A DNA stretch of 47,025 nucleotides. It comes from an uncultured Candidatus Saccharibacteria bacterium (GTDB lineage Bacteria > Patescibacteriota > Minisyncoccia > Ryanbacterales > GWA2-47-10b). Below, in pieces: positions 7,622 through 18,641 of this stretch. The translations under genes and the position numbers were made by a program. The notes under the pieces are model-generated. The model saw nothing but the letters and a program-made list of their open reading frames with translations. It had not been told where the DNA came from and ran no database searches. Each line of letters opens with the position of its first letter. Positions within the stretch are counted from its first letter, which is position 1. The stretch is from NCBI GenBank assembly GCA_964356915.1, contig CAYHJF010000003.1, forward strand, positions 83,579 to 130,603, in the 5' to 3' direction.

Positions 7622-7667
7622 CATTCTGCCACTAACCCGCCTACCGGCGGGCAGGACTATGCCCGCA
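7622..7667 (-). repeat. Duplicate of the tRNA-Gly 5' end interrupted by a 20-nt GC-rich insertion
   Basis: cattctgccactaa[cccgcctaccggcgggcagg]actatgcccgca vs uninterrupted 7582-7607. Confidence 0.85.
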
Positions 7668-15495: not shown

Positions 15496-15582
15496 GTCTG
15501 TAAATTATAGCACAATCTCACAAAAAATCAAGAATTAAAAAAACTCCCACAAGGAAGTTTTTTATCGCACAAAACTATACTC

Positions 15583-15801
15583 TTACATCGATGCGCTCGT
15601 GTTGCACATTTTGCAATTACTCTTGTGTGTTGCAATCTCTACGATTGCTGACACCCCGACAAGAATATAAATAGTTCGAGCAAGCATGGAATCCATGCCA
15701 CCAAGCCATCTACTAACATCCCACCCCACTACACCAACAAGAAGCCAATTCAAGCCTCCAATAACAAGTAAAGTAAACGTAACCATGTGTAATCCTTTCA
15801 T
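15583..15801 (-). CDS. DUF378 domain small membrane protein
   Basis: LLVIGGLNWLLVG...ARTIYILVGVSA; start MKGLHM at 15801 (the ORF-track extension runs into the tRNA-like gene). Confidence 0.88.
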   Translation of the reverse strand: MKGLHMVTFTLLVIGGLNWLLVGVVGWDVSRWLGGMDSMLARTIYILVGVSAIVEIATHKSNCKMCNTSASM

Positions 15802-15871
15802 ATAAAAAATATTGATGGAAACAAAACGACCTTTTTCTTTTTCTATAATACCGTTGTCTCGAAGGTAAAAC

Positions 15872-15900
15872 AAAAAGCCGCCAGCATGAAGCATGGCGGC
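15872..15900 (-). terminator. Terminator downstream of the tRNA-like array
   Basis: GCCGCCA...TGGCGGC stem with U-tract on the minus strand. Confidence 0.65.
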
Positions 15901-15938
15901 ACAATATAAGGAGAAAAGAACTGTATATAAGGGAAACA

Positions 15939-16012
15939 TTGGCCCGAGAGGATTTGAACCTCTGACCTCTTGCCCTGAAGGCAAGCGCTCTCCCTGACTG
16001 AGCTACGGGCCT
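15939..16012 (-). tRNA. Atypical tRNA-like gene: Ala(GGC)-type body with TCA (UGA-reading) anticodon
   Basis: AGGCCCG TA GCTC AGTCAGGGA GAGC G CTTGC CTTCAGG GCAAG AGGTC AGAGG TTCAAAT CCTCT CGGGCCA A; A1.A72 mismatch, no G3.U70, no long variable arm. Confidence 0.8.
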
Positions 16013-16015
16013 GCA

Positions 16016-16101
16016 TGGTCCCGAGGGGACTCGAACCCCCGTTACGAGTATCGGAGGGGGGGTCTCCTAAACTCGCGTCCTAGCCACTAGACGACGGGAC
16101 C
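16016..16101 (-). ncRNA. tRNA-like RNA: Glu-type body with elongated anticodon arm
   Basis: GGTCCCG TC GTCTAGTGGCTAGGAC G CGAGT [TTA GGAG ACCCCCC CTCC GAT] ACTCG TAAC GGGGG TTCGAGT CCCCT CGGGACC A. Confidence 0.8.
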
Positions 16102-16102
16102 A

Positions 16103-16176
16103 AGTCGCGGGGCGGAATCGAACCGCCGCTTGTCGGATCAGGAATCCGATGCCTTAGCCAACTTGGCTACCGCGAC
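16103..16176 (-). tRNA. tRNA with CCT anticodon (nominal Arg) on a Cys-like body
   Basis: GTCGCGG TA GCC AAGTTGGCTAA GGC A TCGGA TTCCTGA TCCGA CAAGC GGCGG TTCGATT CCGCC CCGCGAC T; U73, C rather than A after G18G19. Confidence 0.8.
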
Positions 16177-16198
16177 AAGACCTAGACGAGAAGTATCA

Positions 16199-16280
16199 AG
16201 TACCCGGGAGGATTCGAACCTCCGACCTCTTATGCCACACTCGGGTAGCACAAGCGCTCTCCCAACTGAGCTACGGGCAC
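16199..16280 (-). ncRNA. tRNA-like RNA: Ala-type body (G3.U70) with 10-bp anticodon stem and 6-nt loop
   Basis: GTGCCCG TA GCTC AGTTGGGA GAGC G CTTGTGCTAC CCGAGT GTGGCATAAG AGGTC GGAGG TTCGAAT CCTCC CGGGTAC T. Confidence 0.8.
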
Positions 16281-16315
16281 AAAGAAAGAACGACAAAATC
16301 GAGATTAGCAACAAA

Positions 16316-16353
16316 TAAAAAACCGGTCAAGCGTCTAGCGCACTCGACCAGTT
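16316..16353 (-). terminator. Terminator-like hairpin just upstream of the tRNA-like array
   Basis: Minus strand ACTGGTCGAGTG-CGCTAGA-CGCTTGACCGGT then TTTTT. Confidence 0.55.
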
Positions 16354-16500
16354 TTCTTATAGAGTCGCCAAATGGGAAGCCAATCATCTCTCTCCACCAC
16401 GCAAGGTATTAAAAAATTCTTTAAAAGGCCGCAGGAAATGAAGATCAACTCACTAGTAAGGTTTTCGTCTTTTGAAAAAGAGTGGATAAGAAGGAGCTTG

Positions 16501-16524
16501 AAAAACAAAACCGCCCGAAGGCGG
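16501..16524 (-). terminator. Terminator after the small hydrophobic peptide gene
   Basis: Minus strand CCGCC-TTCG-GGCGG-TTTTGTTTTT. Confidence 0.75.
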
Positions 16525-16532
16525 CCTTGGAG

Positions 16533-16589
16533 TTACCTTCTGATTTCTCGGATCAGGAGAATCAAAAGAATAAGAGTTAGACTTTCCAT
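16533..16589 (-). CDS. 18-aa hydrophobic peptide MESLTLILLILLIREIRR (type I toxin-like)
   Basis: Manual translation; upstream TG-a-TATAAT (16636-16644), start codon inside a hairpin, terminator immediately downstream. Confidence 0.55.
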   Translation of the reverse strand: MESLTLILLILLIREIRR

Positions 16590-16692
16590 ATTTTATGGAA
16601 TTTCCTAGCACCTCTAACAATTTTTACGCTCTTAAATTATATCATTATTTCTCGCTCTTTCCCACTTAACGCAAAAGAGTAAAATAAGCGAT

Positions 16693-17178
16693 ATGTTAAG
16701 ACAAAGACGCATACTTTTCTACCTCAGAGAAGCTCAAATTGTATATGATAAAAAATTAAACGAAGAGATGGACGCCCACATCATTCCTGATATATTTGTA
16801 GGCACTGGCGAGGGAGTTCCAATTTATCTCTTAGTGAACTTTATTCTTGAAAAAGAAAAGAAGGATAAGACATATAGAAAAGATCTAGAATTCCAAATAA
16901 AAGACTGCGTACCAAGTGGTCTTTTAGGACACCCATACTCTTATGACCCATTTAATGGCACCGCCAGAAGAATTGATTATTTTGTTTGTATGACGCCTAA
17001 AGGAAGGAAGTTGGTTACTGAAAATTTTATTTTTAGGTGGCTTTATTTTTTCGAATTTTTTCTAAAAGAGTTTGATAGAACGAATGCTCTTATCGTTACA
17101 CTGTTACTAAGTAGCGTTTTCTGGGGAGGTATTCTTCTTTTTAGTGAGCACCTTAAGAGTATATTCGGTATATCGTAG
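16693..17178 (+). CDS. Hypothetical protein with C-terminal TM (AT-rich)
   Basis: 161-aa ORF; TAAAAT 7 nt before ATG. Confidence 0.65.
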   Translation: MLRQRRILFYLREAQIVYDKKLNEEMDAHIIPDIFVGTGEGVPIYLLVNFILEKEKKDKTYRKDLEFQIKDCVPSGLLGHPYSYDPFNGTARRIDYFVCMTPKGRKLVTENFIFRWLYFFEFFLKEFDRTNALIVTLLLSSVFWGGILLFSEHLKSIFGIS

Positions 17179-17275
17179 ACTAATTTTTAGTATTTTTTAT
17201 ATTAAAACGTTATGGTAAAAAATAAAACAAGATGGCAACGGGCGACAAACTAACAAAAAATGTTTTTCTCTTCCC

Positions 17276-18130
17276 TCAAGATAATATCTCTCCGAGAAGC
17301 CCCCAAAACTGTGGCCAGCTTTTAGTAACTGCTTCGGGATGTTCAAACTGCACTTCTTTTTTCTCCACCTTCCCTTTCATCGCAAGCGCCTGTACCACGC
17401 GATGATCCCACGACGTAATTGGCTTCCCTGCTTCAAAATTTTCTAACTCCACCTCCATCACTTCTATCCTATTGCTCTCATGGCCCTCTAGATTGGGCCA
17501 ACGCTCTTTTCCCTCCTTCTGAGTAATATATCCAAAGGCTCGGGCAAAACAATAATCCTCAGCTTGGTGTGGTACAAACTCTGGCTGCTCACCTCGCATA
17601 AGCGCTATAAACGTCTCTGCTTGGCGCAATATCGTCTCATCATATCGTAGCTCCCACGTCATCCCTTTGGCACGTCTTTCGCGCCAGTGACTTACCGCTT
17701 CATATGTAAGCTTCAACTTAAATGACGAATTTTTTATTACTTCATCTCTACCACACAACAGTGCAGCACTCGCCCATTGTGACGTACCATGATCAAGTTC
17801 AAGAAGCTTTGAGAGTGAATATGAAATAATGCCCGCATCGTTTGTGATGGGACGATCTTTGAGAGTTCCTTGTTTGATAAAAACTTTATTGAAACCAAAA
17901 TGCCAAGAAGCAAATTGCAAAAATCGATAGAGCGTTCCCGACTCCCCTACATCGATCGCTTCATCTGTATGCCACGCGCGAGCTGCACGTAACAACGCCT
18001 CCAAATCATCGGAAAGATTATTCTGCACCTCAAGAAATATCTCGATATCAGAGTATCCGTTGACGATATCGAGCACGCCAACTCGCATCATCCACGACTT
18101 ATCGAGCGGAATATATTCTTTAATATTCAA
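17276..18130 (-). CDS. Shortened EPSP synthase (AroA)-like / enolpyruvyl transferase-fold protein
   Basis: PLDKSWMMR, DVGESGTLYRFL, TSQWASAALL, ESNRI, DHRVVQAL and VTKSWPQFW mirror AroA motifs; likely TTG start at 18130 after AGGAGAGG. Confidence 0.75.
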   Translation of the reverse strand: MNIKEYIPLDKSWMMRVGVLDIVNGYSDIEIFLEVQNNLSDDLEALLRAARAWHTDEAIDVGESGTLYRFLQFASWHFGFNKVFIKQGTLKDRPITNDAGIISYSLSKLLELDHGTSQWASAALLCGRDEVIKNSSFKLKLTYEAVSHWRERRAKGMTWELRYDETILRQAETFIALMRGEQPEFVPHQAEDYCFARAFGYITQKEGKERWPNLEGHESNRIEVMEVELENFEAGKPITSWDHRVVQALAMKGKVEKKEVQFEHPEAVTKSWPQFWGLLGEILS

Positions 18131-18641
18131 TTCCTCTCCTCGCTTTTTTGCCTTCATAAAATGGATGCTTAACATCTTTGATCTCACTGACAAGATCGGC
18201 CTCATCAATCAAGGATTGTTTAGCTCCCCTACCCGTCAAAATCAAATCTACTTTTTTCTCTCGACTTGTACGAATTAACCGGAGCGCATCTTCTTCGGCA
18301 ATCAAACCTAGATCAATCGCATTGTGTATCTCATCGGCAATAATAATATTCCATTGTTCACCTTCCACTTCACGAATCAATTCTGCGAGCGCATCTTTCG
18401 CCGCCCCCTCATGTTCCTCACGCGGAAGCGTATCATTTAAAATTCCGACGAATCCTTTGCCGCGCTTTCGTAATTCAAAATCCGGAAGCAGACGCTTGTG
18501 CGATTCGTCTTCGCCCGACGGCCACGGCCCTTTGATAAACTGAATCATCAATACTTTTTTACCATCTCCGACCGAACGAAGTGCTTGCCCCAACGCCGCA
18601 GTCGTCTTCCCCTTTCCATCGCCAGTAAAGATATAAATCAC
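18120..18641 (-). CDS. btuR: Cob(I)yrinic acid a,c-diamide / cob(I)alamin adenosyltransferase (BtuR/CobO)
   Basis: IFTGDGKGKTTAALG, QFIKG, DLILTGR, KHPF...ARRGIEY. Confidence 0.93.
   Translation of the reverse strand: MIYIFTGDGKGKTTAALGQALRSVGDGKKVLMIQFIKGPWPSGEDESHKRLLPDFELRKRGKGFVGILNDTLPREEHEGAAKDALAELIREVEGEQWNIIIADEIHNAIDLGLIAEEDALRLIRTSREKKVDLILTGRGAKQSLIDEADLVSEIKDVKHPFYEGKKARRGIEY

What the first reader, a model, noticed from the sequence alone, without database searches (positions are those of the whole stretch)
15870..16290. Polycistronic array of four tRNA-like RNAs with remodelled anticodon arms: a candidate tRNA-mimic/decoy system
Seen: four cloverleafs are packed with 22-, 1- and 3-nt spacers and end in their own terminator. 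All four keep a paired D stem with GG, a canonical TTC-R-A T-loop and a paired acceptor stem (one terminal mismatch in the first). None has an anticodon arm matching its body: Ala-type body with UCA loop, Glu-type body with a 21-nt structured insert, Cys-like body with CCU, and Ala-type body with a 10-bp stem and 6-nt loop. The altered arms are still base-paired, which random pseudogenisation would not favour. Known: the elbow and acceptor are what RNase P, CCA-adding enzyme, EF-Tu, AlaRS and tRNA-sensing factors read, whereas anticodon nucleases (PrrC, RloC, VapC, colicins D/E5) and decoding use the anticodon loop. Inference: these may be non-decoding tRNA mimics, for example nuclease-resistant decoys, aminoacyl donors for non-ribosomal transfer, or regulators of tRNA-binding proteins.
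Basis: partly seen in the sequence, partly recalled or inferred. Interest (0 to 1): 0.9.

Follow-up and report, generated by a model that had tools for sequence, protein, structure and literature searches.

The report
Array of four disarmed tRNA look-alikes
A tiny groundwater bacterium carries, besides a full set of normal tRNAs, a lineage-specific row of four tRNA-shaped genes whose decoding arms are rebuilt or mismatched; they are probably useless for ordinary translation and may be either working mimics or young relics.

Summary
Four tRNA-shaped genes lie on the minus strand: A 16280-16199, B 16176-16103, C 16101-16016, D 16012-15939. The spacers are 22, 1 and 3 nt, and an intrinsic terminator follows. 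All four pass Rfam tRNA (50.7-65.5 bits).

A has a 10-bp anticodon stem with a 6-nt loop. C carries a 14-nt structured insert. B (Cys-type body, CCU) and D (Ala/Arg-type body, UCA) have ordinary 7-nt loops but anticodons that do not fit their bodies.

The 0.88-Mb genome has canonical Ala, Glu, Arg and Cys tRNAs elsewhere. It uses the standard code, and AGG and CGA still align with Arg.

Contigs from three other studies carry the array, so it is not an assembly error. It sits in a ~1.75-kb insertion that five family relatives lack. It was not found in 40 relatives, 400 class genomes or 39 metagenome loci.

A sister strain reads UCG where this one reads UCA. No partner enzyme, recognisable promoter or RNA data was found. 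Single tRNA look-alikes with enlarged anticodon arms occur in about 1.5% of genomes, both in this phylum and in a control phylum.

Best reading (0.42): an accessory set of non-decoding tRNA mimics. Main rival (0.33): a young decaying relic of an acquired tRNA operon.

The parts
16199..16280 (-). tRNA-like A, 82 nt. It has an Ala/Arg-type body, G3.U70, U2:A71 and discriminator U. The anticodon arm is replaced by a 10-bp helix with the 6-nt loop CCGAGU.
   Evidence: 51.4 bits; the MFE fold is a cloverleaf, z = -3.24; 97 of 5000 shuffles fold as well; comparison with tRNA-Ala and tRNA-Arg of class relatives.
16177..16198 (-). 22-nt spacer between A and B.
16103..16176 (-). tRNA-like B, 74 nt. It has a Cys-type body (A13.A22, discriminator U), the loop UUCCUGA (anticodon CCU, G37) and no A20.
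   Evidence: (65.5 bits); the only exact D-arm plus T-loop match in the species collection is a tRNA-Cys(GCA).
16016..16101 (-). tRNA-like C, 86 nt. It has a Glu-type body (U11:A24, U13.G22, 4-nt variable region UAAC). The anticodon arm is a basal stem, a 3x3 internal loop, the helix GGAG/CUCC and the loop ACCCCCC.
   Evidence: (50.7 bits); 158 of 5000 shuffles fold as well; loop length and discriminator vary in run X11.
15939..16012 (-). tRNA-like D, 74 nt. It is a paralogue of A, with an A1.A72 mismatch, G3:C70, the loop CUUCAGG (UCA, G37, C32:G38) and no A20.
   Evidence: (61.5 bits) and 59: C32:G38 occurs in 0 of the 43 canonical tRNAs of the genome. UCG in run X11.
15870..15900 (-). Intrinsic terminator after the array: hairpin 15900-15877 followed by a U-run.
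   Evidence: z = -4.16. In one search the one difference here in run X6 (15887) falls in the loop.
16317..16357 (-). Terminator-like hairpin whose T-run ends 36 nt upstream of A.
16506..16644 (-). Upstream unit. It holds an extended -10-like TGaTATAAT (16644-16636), an 18-codon hydrophobic ORF (16589-16533) and a strong terminator (16529-16506). It is the only promoter-like element upstream of the array.
   Evidence: (repeat D1 matches the -10 region of the RNase P RNA promoter).
15540..17275 (.). Lineage-specific insertion of about 1.75 kb, between the RNase P RNA promoter and the AroA-like gene. It holds DUF378 (15583-15789, -), the array, the upstream unit and the ORFan hyp161 (16693-17178, +).
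   Evidence: five family relatives have CobA-(AroA-like)-rnpB directly adjacent. Pfam; hyp161 has no homologue.

Best explanation
The locus is an accessory set of four tRNA-derived, translation-disabled RNAs. They arose from ordinary tRNA genes of Ala/Arg, Cys and Glu type; the C-D pair still resembles a canonical Glu-Ala operon of a class relative. They sit on a small insertion that is specific to this lineage.

Shown:
- All four keep every feature that makes the L-shaped tRNA body.
- A and C carry long closed hairpins where the anticodon arm should be.
- B and D carry anticodons that do not fit their bodies and lack the A20 found in every Arg tRNA of this genome.
- The cell does not need them for decoding and has not changed its code.

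Inferred:
- They are transcribed as one precursor, probably by read-through from the promoter-like element about 350 nt upstream.
- The precursor is cut by RNase P, trimmed at the 3' end and given CCA, since none is encoded.
- A can probably be alanylated through G3.U70.
- They then act through the acceptor/T/D body, not through an anticodon. The likeliest role is as decoys or competitors for proteins that read the tRNA body, such as tRNA-directed nucleases or toxins, or processing and modification enzymes. Less likely, they are amino-acid carriers outside the ribosome.

The anticodon arms only need to be stable hairpins that keep the RNA out of the decoding centre, which would explain why they vary between strains.
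For: 1. The tRNA body is intact in 4 of 4. Rfam scores are 50.7-65.5 bits, against 49-78.8 for the genome's other full-length tRNA matches. The only flagged non-standard stem pair is 1:72 of D. The MFE folds of A and C are cloverleaves.

2. The lesions are concentrated in the anticodon arms and are still paired. For A, 97 of 5000 shuffles fold as well; for C, 158 of 5000.

3. The paralogues A and D differ by changes on both sides that keep pairing, at 2:71 (U:A against G:C) and at 49:65 (G:C against A:U). This is read by eye.

4. The array is not an artefact and is kept in other samples. Run X3 (another study) is identical over 15907-16179 and 16210-16382. Run X6 (a third study) spans 15749-16344 with 2 differences.

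5. In run X11 the three differences within 15923-16074 all fall at unpaired positions: the third anticodon base of D, the discriminator of C, and the C-run in the loop of C.

6. A diverged partial copy in run X12 keeps the junction between the 3' half of C and the 5' half of D (59 nt, 4 differences and 1 gap). It has other hairpins in place of both arms: a 13-nt stem-loop in D and a related GAG/C-rich-loop/CUC arm in C. I read this from the loose ends.

7. The array has its own terminator.

8. The canonical tRNA set is complete for these amino acids. The code is standard: TGA ends 138 of 645 ORFs. AGG aligns with R 45% and K 23% (n = 44), and CGA with R 71% (n = 388), in 87 orthologue alignments.
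Against: - No promoter-like -10 lies within 80 nt upstream of A (best hexamer 3 of 6). Many tRNA genes of this genome have one 5-20 nt upstream. A terminator-like hairpin lies directly upstream.
- No RNA-level data exist.
- The array is confined to one genus-level lineage. It was not found in 40 relatives, next to RNase P RNA in 29 relatives, in 400 class genomes, or in 39 metagenome loci anchored on the neighbouring DUF378 gene.
- It sits in an insertion together with an ORFan.
- Run X6 carries a change in A (16252, U29 to C) that breaks a stem pair. It comes from one contig at depth 3.87.
- If the X12 pieces come from one strain, the array (4 differences and 1 gap in 59 nt, arms unalignable) has diverged faster than its flanks (2 in 174 nt and 3 in 93 nt).
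- No candidate partner was found. FemAB, Acetyltransf_6, LPG_synthase_C, TROVE, Colicin_D and PIN all gave 0 hits in the 99% complete genome.
- Single tRNA look-alikes with enlarged anticodon regions are no more common in this phylum (7 of 400 other genomes match the pattern, one of them not a real case) than in a control phylum (2 of 124). The one case followed up has a counterpart in only 1 of 60 relatives.
Confidence: 0.42

Rival explanations
1. The array is a young relic. A tRNA operon was duplicated or acquired from another small-genome bacterium, became redundant, and is now decaying. The anticodon arms were hit first, either by chance or because disabling a foreign or mis-identified tRNA is favoured. 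The bodies look intact only because little time has passed. There is no present function.
For: - Lineage-specific insertion together with an ORFan.
- No promoter, and a terminator directly upstream.
- Polymorphic anticodon (UCA/UCG), polymorphic discriminator, and a stem-breaking variant.
- A1.A72 mismatch, and loss of A20 and of G3:U70 in D.
- The same genome holds other tRNA fragments next to tRNA genes.
- Aberrant tRNA look-alikes occur sporadically at about 1.5% of genomes in two phyla and are poorly conserved.
- No partner enzymes were found.
Against: - Uniform neutral decay should hit stems, which make up about 57% of positions. Instead 4 of 4 genes are altered in the anticodon arm while only one canonical stem pair is broken.
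- The inserts are base-paired beyond shuffles.
- The arm of A holds G.U pairs, which only make sense at the RNA level on this strand.
- A and D differ by changes on both sides that keep pairing.
- The remodelled state is shared with a diverged copy in X12, so it is not brand new.
Confidence: 0.33
2. The array is a mixed set. B (CCU) and D (UCG in some strains, UCA here) are working accessory decoders: extra AGG and CGA readers, or in this strain a weak UGA suppressor. A and C are dead copies.
For: - B and D have normal 5-bp stems, 7-nt loops, U33 and a purine at 37, and the two best Rfam scores of the array.
- AGG is the rarest Arg codon, at 2.7 per 1000.
- The X11 form of D reads UCG with G37, like the genome's own tRNA-Arg(UCG) loop.
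Against: - Both lack the A20 present in all five Arg tRNAs of the genome.
- B has a Cys-type body and discriminator U.
- B has G37 after U36, whereas the canonical tRNAs of this genome whose anticodon ends in U have A37 (my count).
- D has C32:G38 (0 of 43 canonical tRNAs) and an unpaired 1:72.
- Canonical CCU and UCG Arg tRNAs already exist.
- AGG and CGA align with Arg or Lys, not with Cys or Ala.
- TGA ends 21% of ORFs, so an efficient suppressor would be costly.
Confidence: 0.12
3. A and C are intron-bearing tRNA genes. The inserts are cut out and the halves are joined by one of the genome's two RtcB ligases, giving normal tRNAs.
For: - Two tandem RtcB genes lie in the genome at G000:C3:66258-69007.
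- The last 7 nt of each enlarged loop could be read as a loop with U33 and a purine at 37 (by eye).
Against: - There is no bulge-helix-bulge motif: A is one continuous helix and C has a symmetric internal loop.
- No splicing endonuclease family hit was found.
- No group I intron hit was found, and the inserts are only 9 and 14 nt.
- The anticodons that would result (GUG and CCG) do not fit the bodies.
- Tandem RtcB is just as common in relatives without the array: 15 of 20 relatives have RtcB and most have two copies.
- Canonical Ala and Glu tRNAs already exist.
Confidence: 0.05
4. They are aminoacyl carriers for a non-ribosomal transfer reaction. In particular, A would be charged with Ala through G3.U70 and kept off the ribosome by its long arm.
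For: - G3.U70 in A, with a paired 2:71.
- The long anticodon helix excludes decoding.
- From general knowledge, AlaRS does not read the anticodon.
Against: - No FemAB, Acetyltransf_6 (Fem-like) or LPG_synthase_C (MprF) domain was found in the genome.
- D, the paralogue of A, has lost G3.U70.
- Glu-type and Cys-type bodies normally need their anticodons for charging (general knowledge), so B and C would stay uncharged.
Confidence: 0.05

Closest known systems
Ordinary bacterial tRNA operons, for example the Glu(UUC)-3 nt-Ala(UGC)-7 nt-Arg(GCG) operon of class relative G229 (L096)
   Same: Tight head-to-tail packing and cloverleaves with all tertiary nucleotides. A blastn hit spans the 3' part of C, the 3-nt spacer and D at 76% identity.
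   Different: Here the anticodon arms are enlarged (A, C) or carry anticodons foreign to the body (B, D). The genes are redundant with the canonical set.
Known tRNA mimics that keep the acceptor/T part but not the anticodon arm: the tmRNA tRNA-like domain, YrlA-type Y RNAs and mascRNA
   Same: An acceptor stem and T arm are retained without a decoding loop. A has G3.U70, like the tmRNA domain (a property recalled, not tested).
   Different: There is no mRNA-like part. The genome has its own tmRNA. The YrlA and mascRNA models score far below threshold: 32.7 against 69 and 23.1 against 42.5. No Ro protein was found. The four genes here keep a full D arm and the normal topology.
Phage tRNAs with anticodon-loop changes that escape anticodon nucleases (PMC10264068, PMC11464382 and PMC11555353; seen as search listing and abstracts only)
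   Same: Extra tRNA genes whose anticodon loops differ from the host's. They are thought to matter in conflicts over tRNA cleavage.
   Different: Those tRNAs still decode their codons. A and C here cannot. The array is in a bacterial chromosome with no phage genes beside it. No match to phage records goes beyond single-tRNA similarity.
Long tRNA gene arrays carrying some undetected or pseudogene members (PMC8421152; passages read)
   Same: Accessory, apparently mobile tRNA gene clusters that are redundant with housekeeping tRNAs. Some members are not expressed, and non-canonical roles have been proposed.
   Different: In that operon 23 of 26 members are detected and aminoacylated. Here 0 of 4 looks like a normal decoder, and the array is only four genes long.
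Sporadic tRNA look-alikes with enlarged anticodon arms in other genomes: G586, G903, G526, G736, G432 and G589; two in a control phylum; 16 viral contigs
   Same: A cloverleaf with a long hairpin in place of the anticodon arm, and Rfam tRNA scores of 38-49 bits. G589 has a 7-bp stem with a 6-nt loop, like A. G903 keeps G3.U70.
   Different: These are single genes, or one pair in G586. None is a four-member array of different body types. There is no sequence relation to this array.

Membership tests
Canonical decoding (elongator) tRNA | Cloverleaf with the conserved D/T tertiary nucleotides and a 7-bp acceptor stem. | tested here: met
   RF00005 scores are 50.7-65.5 bits against a gathering score of 29. 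Only 1:72 of D is flagged.
Canonical decoding (elongator) tRNA | A 5-bp anticodon stem closing a 7-nt loop with U33 and a purine at 37. | tested here: not met
   A has a 10-bp stem and a 6-nt loop. C has 21 nt between the basal pairs. B and D do meet this feature.
Canonical decoding (elongator) tRNA | An anticodon that agrees with the identity elements of the body. | tested here: not met
   B has a Cys-type D arm, A13.A22 and discriminator U, but anticodon CCU and no A20. D has UCA or UCG without A20, with G3:C70 and A1.A72. What each identity element means is taken from general knowledge.
tRNA-Sec (ARAGORN's label for D) | A long variable arm and an extended acceptor stem. | tested here: not met
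   D has a 7-bp acceptor, a 5-bp T stem and a 5-nt variable region. The label comes from the UCA triplet alone.
tRNA-Pyl (ARAGORN's label for A) | A CUA anticodon presented in a 7-nt loop. | tested here: not met
   The CUA triplet lies inside the 10-bp helix of A.
tRNA with an archaeal/eukaryal-type intron | A bulge-helix-bulge motif at the exon-intron borders. | tested here: not met
   A is one continuous helix. C has a symmetric 3x3 internal loop, a 4-bp helix and a loop.
tRNA with an archaeal/eukaryal-type intron | A splicing endonuclease in the genome. | tested here: not met
   PF01974 gave 0 hits, while the control rang in 4 archaea. The ligase RtcB is present but is equally present in relatives without the array.
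tRNA interrupted by a group I intron | A catalytic intron of about 200 nt or more in the anticodon loop. | tested here: not met
   The inserts are 9 and 14 nt. There is no Intron_gpI match in the window.
tRNA pseudogene or relic | Loss of stem pairing or of conserved tertiary nucleotides. | tested here: not met
   One mismatch (1:72 of D) across the four genes.
tRNA pseudogene or relic | No expression signals, and evolution at the neutral rate. | tested here: inconclusive
   No -10-like element within 80 nt upstream, but the array has its own terminator. The strain data are mixed: X6 has 2 differences in 596 nt of the array against 4 differences and 1 gap in 231 nt of flank, while X12 shows the opposite pattern.
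Non-proteinogenic aminoacyl-tRNA donors (Fem/MprF-type systems) | A tRNA-dependent aminoacyl transferase in the genome. | tested here: not met
   PF02388, PF13480 and PF09924 each gave 0 hits.
Non-proteinogenic aminoacyl-tRNA donors (Fem/MprF-type systems) | The RNA is aminoacylated. | not testable with these tools
   Only the G3.U70 pair of A can be read from the sequence.
Y RNA-like (YrlA) / Ro system | A match to the family model and a Ro (TROVE) protein. | tested here: not met
   YrlA scores 32.7 bits against a gathering score of 69, and the match straddles two genes. TROVE gave 0 hits.
Target of a diversity-generating retroelement | A template repeat elsewhere in the genome that matches the variable region. 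| tested here: not met
   Three reverse transcriptase genes exist on other contigs. The array's only other match in its own genome is a 26-nt T-arm hit.

The most novel reading that the evidence does not exclude
The array is a purpose-built set of 'disarmed' tRNAs. Several different tRNA bodies (Ala/Arg, Cys, Glu) are kept under selection, while their anticodon arms are closed off and evolve fast. They would work as molecular decoys, or as an RNA-based immunity, against tRNA-directed nucleases or toxins of phages, competitors or the host cell. Alternatively they would be tRNA-scaffolded small RNAs whose variable hairpins are the active part. This kind of accessory RNA module has not been described in bacteria; my five full-text searches found no description.
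Probability: 0.15. Interest if true: 0.8.

Novelty: new variant of a known kind. Interest (0 to 1): 0.5.

Why it matters
If these RNAs are made and stable, they would be a natural case of a cell keeping several tRNA bodies while deliberately removing their decoding ability. That would bear on three questions:
- how tRNA-binding enzymes and toxins are buffered;
- how tRNA genes turn into new non-coding RNAs;
- how ultra-small symbiotic bacteria handle conflicts over tRNA.

If they are relics, they are still useful. They would be a clean snapshot of how redundant tRNA genes are first inactivated, with the anticodon arm going first. They also warn annotators: ARAGORN calls them tRNA-Sec, tRNA-Pyl, tRNA-Pro and tRNA-Arg, which would wrongly suggest recoding in a genome that uses the standard code.

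Tried and rejected
**Assembly artefact: rejected.** Contigs of three other studies carry the array.

**Recoding (UGA sense, AGG or CGA reassigned): rejected.** All three stop codons are used. AGG and CGA align with Arg or Lys in 87 orthologue alignments against 259 kb of relative G004.

**Sec or Pyl tRNAs: rejected** on structure.

**Archaeal-type or group I introns: rejected**.

**A link to the tandem RtcB pair: rejected.** RtcB is present in 15 of 20 relatives without the array.

**DGR target: rejected.** There is no template copy.

**Leader-peptide attenuator upstream of the array: not supported.**
- Phe_leader scores 27.8 bits against a gathering score of 55.
- By eye I saw no alternative pairing with the terminator.

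**'B and D have closed triloop arms': dropped.** Nine of 43 canonical arms fold the same way.

**'Cognate anticodon paired with an inserted codon' in A and C, and 'all four contain Arg-like triplets': dropped.** My own rough estimates put both patterns at chance level.

**The 13-of-14 direct repeat between the arm of B and the small ORF:** about chance level by my estimate.

**Phage origin: no support**.

**Searches for orthologous arrays that found nothing:**
- metagenome pattern;
- 39 DUF378-anchored metagenome loci;
- 40 relatives;
- 29 RNase P loci;
- 400 class genomes.

**hyp161:**
- no Pfam or NCBIfam family;
- no homologue;
- the single-sequence AlphaFold model is poor, with pLDDT 48.9, so no fold search was run;
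- the Atlas gave only weak winged-helix look-alikes below its bar.

**Expression:** no RNA holder is listed among the sequencing runs.

**Coverage:** parts of the stretch have no cover in the laid runs (16402-16524). This says nothing either way.

**Literature:** five full-text searches and passages of PMC8421152 gave no description of such an array. Supplements were not consulted.

Full report
**What is there**

The stretch 15870-16290 holds four tRNA-shaped genes on the minus strand. ARAGORN lists them as 'SeC(tca)' 15939-16012, 'Pro(agg)' 16015-16102, 'Arg(cct)' 16103-16176 and 'Pyl(cta)' 16199-16280. Rfam's tRNA model finds the same four at 61.5, 50.7, 65.5 and 51.4 bits against a gathering score of 29.

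I call them A to D in the order of transcription:
- A: 16280-16199
- B: 16176-16103
- C: 16101-16016
- D: 16012-15939

The spacers are 22, 1 and 3 nt. After D comes a hairpin (15900-15877) with a U-run. It folds far better than shuffles (z = -4.16). No CCA is encoded.

**Anatomy**

The alignments to the tRNA model show complete acceptor, D and T arms in all four. Only one pair is flagged as non-standard, A1.A72 of D. Free-energy folding alone returns a cloverleaf for A and for C.

- **A.** The anticodon arm is one continuous 10-bp helix capped by CCGAGU.
- **C.** The arm is a basal stem, a 3x3 internal loop, a 4-bp helix (GGAG/CUCC) and a 7-nt C-rich loop.
- **B and D.** Both have ordinary 5-bp stems and 7-nt loops, UUCCUGA and CUUCAGG.

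I shuffled the inner part of each arm. Only 97 of 5000 shuffles (A) and 158 of 5000 (C) folded as well as the real sequence. For B and D the figures were 718 and 307 of 5000. I had thought B and D might be 'closed' into triloops. However, 9 of the 43 canonical arms of this genome fold that way in silico, so I dropped that idea.

D does stand out in one respect: it has C32:G38, which is seen in 0 of 43 canonical tRNAs. B has G37 after a U-ending anticodon, whereas the canonical tRNAs of this genome with U36 have A37 (my count).

**Which tRNAs they come from**

- **B.** Its D arm plus T loop has a single exact match among 185,579 species genomes, a tRNA-Cys(GCA). It shares the D arm, A26, T loop and discriminator U with the genome's own tRNA-Cys.
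- **C.** It has the Glu-type D arm and a 4-nt variable region.
- **A and D.** They are paralogues of each other. Among 400 genomes of the same class, the only matches at E <= 1e-8 are single tRNAs aligned to D at 76-84% identity. Of the nine such loci I inspected, most are tRNA-Arg and some are tRNA-Ala.

One relative, G229, has a normal Glu(UUC)-3 nt-Ala(UGC)-7 nt-Arg(GCG) operon. The blastn match to it runs from the 3' part of C, across the 3-nt spacer, into D. The C-D pair therefore looks like a derivative of such an operon.

A keeps G3.U70 and has U2:A71 where the Ala tRNAs of relatives have G2:C71. D has G3:C70 and A1.A72. Neither has the A20 that all five Arg tRNAs of this genome carry.

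The one qualification is that 'Ala-type' for A and D could equally be 'Arg-type'.

**The rest of the genome**

The window lies in a 0.88-Mb, 44-45% G+C assembly of nine contigs, rated 99% complete. ARAGORN finds 47 tRNA genes and a tmRNA. Besides the array they include Ala x3, Glu x2, Arg x5 (including CCU and UCG) and Cys. The canonical tRNAs of the genome look quite different from the array members.

The code is standard:
- Of 645 long ORFs, 337 end in TAA, 170 in TAG and 138 in TGA.
- In 87 orthologue alignments against 259 kb of family relative G004, AGG aligns with R (45%) and K (23%) (n = 44).
- CGA aligns with R (71%) (n = 388).

Nothing suggests that B or D has changed the meaning of a codon.

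**Is it an artefact?**

No.
- Contigs from run X3 (another study) are identical over 15907-16179 and 16210-16382.
- A 596-nt contig from run X6 (a third study) spans 15749-16344 with two differences. One lies in the terminator loop. The other is U29 to C in A, which breaks a pair; it rests on one contig at depth 3.87.
- A contig from run X11 (a fourth study) covers 15923-16074 with three differences. The third anticodon base of D changes, so UCA becomes UCG. The discriminator of C changes from A to G. There is one C fewer in the loop of C. All three are unpaired positions.

Run X12 (a fifth study) has a 212-nt contig at depth 2. It matches only the 3' half of C, the spacer and the 5' half of D (59 nt, 4 differences and 1 gap), and then departs on both sides. 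I read the loose ends as follows:
- D there has a 13-nt stem-loop (5 bp plus 3 nt) instead of a 17-nt arm.
- C has a related but different arm (GAG, a C-rich loop, then CUC...).

This rests on one thin contig and on my own reading of 30-letter and 23-letter consensus strings.

**Distribution**

The array was not found in any of these searches:
- 40 nearest relatives by blastn. Only single tRNA hits appeared, and they are ordinary Arg, Val, Lys or Leu genes.
- Next to RNase P RNA in 29 relatives.
- 400 class genomes.
- 39 metagenome loci fetched through the neighbouring DUF378 protein at 45-76% identity.
- Two specific patterns, which found nothing in viral or metagenome contigs.
- Phage records, which gave only single-tRNA similarity.

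Synteny explains why. Five family relatives (G001, G004, G005, G006 and G007) have CobA-(AroA-like)-RNase P RNA-hyp97-TPR directly adjacent. This genome has about 1.75 kb more between the AroA-like gene and the RNase P RNA gene. The extra DNA holds:
- DUF378;
- the array;
- a small upstream unit;
- a 161-aa ORFan.

The ORFan has no homologue in 400 class genomes or in the 5.8-billion-protein collection. The array is therefore part of a lineage-specific insertion.

**Expression signals**

The scan finds no sigma-70-like promoter between the array and 16530. It does find a terminator-like hairpin at 16357-16317, whose T-run ends 36 nt before A, and a second at 16529-16506.

Within 80 nt upstream of A the best -10-like hexamer matches 3 of 6 positions. 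Many tRNA genes of this genome have TATAAT-like boxes 5-20 nt upstream.

The only convincing element is TGaTATAAT at 16644-16636. It closely resembles the -10 region of the RNase P RNA promoter (repeat D1; sequence). It would drive an 18-codon hydrophobic ORF (16589-16533) and would have to read through two terminators to reach the array.

No RNA run was on offer, so whether the array is expressed remains open.

**Partners sought**

The genome gave no hit for:
- FemAB, Acetyltransf_6 and LPG_synthase_C;
- tRNA splicing endonuclease;
- TROVE/Ro;
- Colicin_D;
- PIN.

It has two tandem RtcB genes about 30 kb away. However, 15 of 20 relatives without the array also have RtcB, most of them two copies. 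It has three reverse transcriptases on other contigs, but no second copy of the array sequence that could act as a template.

**How common are such things?**

I used one pattern for an Ala/Arg/Val-type D arm followed by an enlarged anticodon region.
- It hit 8 of 401 genomes of the phylum, including this one.
- Six of the seven others are real tRNA look-alikes of 76-100 nt with a long hairpin in place of the anticodon arm, scoring 40-49 bits. The seventh is an odd join at a contig end.
- The same pattern hit 2 of 124 genomes of a control phylum.
- A related pattern hit 16 viral contigs.

Single look-alikes of this kind are thus a low background, about 1.5% of genomes, and are not special to this phylum.

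I followed up one case, G586. It has a counterpart in only 1 of 60 relatives. That is a same-genus genome (G903), whose copy has the same D arm but a wholly different enlarged arm and acceptor stem.

What remains unusual here is the combination:
- four members;
- three body types;
- all altered in the decoding arm;
- tightly packed, with their own terminator.

**Weighing**

For a working, non-decoding RNA set:
- the bodies are intact;
- the lesions sit in the arms and stay paired;
- A and D differ by changes on both sides that keep pairing;
- the array persists in several samples;
- the X11 changes are confined to unpaired positions;
- the remodelled state is shared with the X12 copy.

For a relic:
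- there is no promoter;
- the distribution is narrow, and the array lies in an insertion with an ORFan;
- the 'anticodon' is polymorphic;
- X6 has a stem-breaking variant;
- the X12 array seems more diverged than its flanks;
- other tRNA fragments lie in the same genome;
- there is a general background of such look-alikes;
- no partner was found.

Uniform neutral decay does not easily give four anticodon-arm lesions with one broken stem pair. For that reason I put the mimic reading slightly ahead, at 0.42 against 0.33. A mixed reading (B and D decode, A and C are dead) gets 0.12. The intron and aminoacyl-donor readings get 0.05 each. Which protein the mimics would act on is pure inference.

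**Limits**

- No orthologous arrays could be fetched, so no covariation test was possible.
- The strain evidence comes from short contigs of low depth.

Noticed in passing
G000:C3:66258-69007 (outside the window; L103 6172-9014): Two tandem RtcB (RNA 3'-phosphate ligase) paralogues sit inside a glycosyltransferase region of a 0.88-Mb genome. Fifteen of 20 nearest relatives also have RtcB, most with two copies, often side by side. No splicing endonuclease was found, so their substrate in these tiny genomes is open.
   Followed up: partly
window 16506-16644, minus strand: A promoter-like TGaTATAAT (16644-16636) is followed by an 18-codon very hydrophobic ORF (MESLTLILLILLIREIRR, 16589-16533) and a strong terminator (16529-16506). 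It could be a small RNA or a toxin-like membrane peptide. Rfam Phe_leader matches only below threshold (27.8 bits against 55).
   Followed up: partly
window 7623-7666, minus strand; also G000:C1 just upstream of tRNA-Ile(UAU) at 58565 and of tRNA-Pro(CGG) at 179682: Partial 5' copies of the downstream tRNA gene lie directly upstream of three canonical tRNA genes. The tRNA-Gly(CCC) fragment is interrupted by a 20-nt G+C-rich hairpin-forming insert that occurs only once in the genome.
   Followed up: partly
G000:C1:283482-284123, C2:64397-65020, C2:183262-183873: Three reverse-transcriptase genes with open frames of 353-372 aa lie in a 0.88-Mb genome. They may belong to diversity-generating retroelements. 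None is near the array.
   Followed up: no
window 17276-18208, minus strand: A 310-aa protein matches only the last ~45 residues of EPSP synthase (AroA/MurA fold). It is conserved at 57% identity next to CobA in two family relatives (L032 and L038). It is a truncated or strongly diverged enolpyruvyl-transferase-like protein.
   Followed up: no
window 16130-16143 and 16545-16558: A 13-of-14 direct repeat links the anticodon loop and 3' stem of tRNA-like B with the coding sequence of the small upstream ORF. By my rough estimate this is about chance level for a 2-kb region.
   Followed up: no
L138 (G460:C6:24740-27801): A tRNA-Ile(GAU), a 78-nt tRNA look-alike with an enlarged anticodon region, and a group I intron all lie inside the span matched by the bacterial 23S rRNA model.
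   Followed up: no
L135 1393-1583 (G586) and L146 1422-1601 (G903): Two genomes of one genus carry 90-nt and 91-nt tRNA look-alikes with an identical D arm but different enlarged anticodon arms and different acceptor stems. The G903 copy has G3.U70 and follows a normal tRNA-Val. The G586 copy follows a second, degenerate tRNA look-alike (33.8 bits).
   Followed up: partly
L104, L106, L109, L111, L116 (viral contigs): tRNA-like genes read CUGUAG at the start of the anticodon loop, followed by an insert of about 23-24 nt. This resembles intron-bearing tRNA-Tyr(GUA) genes, here in viral contigs.
   Followed up: no
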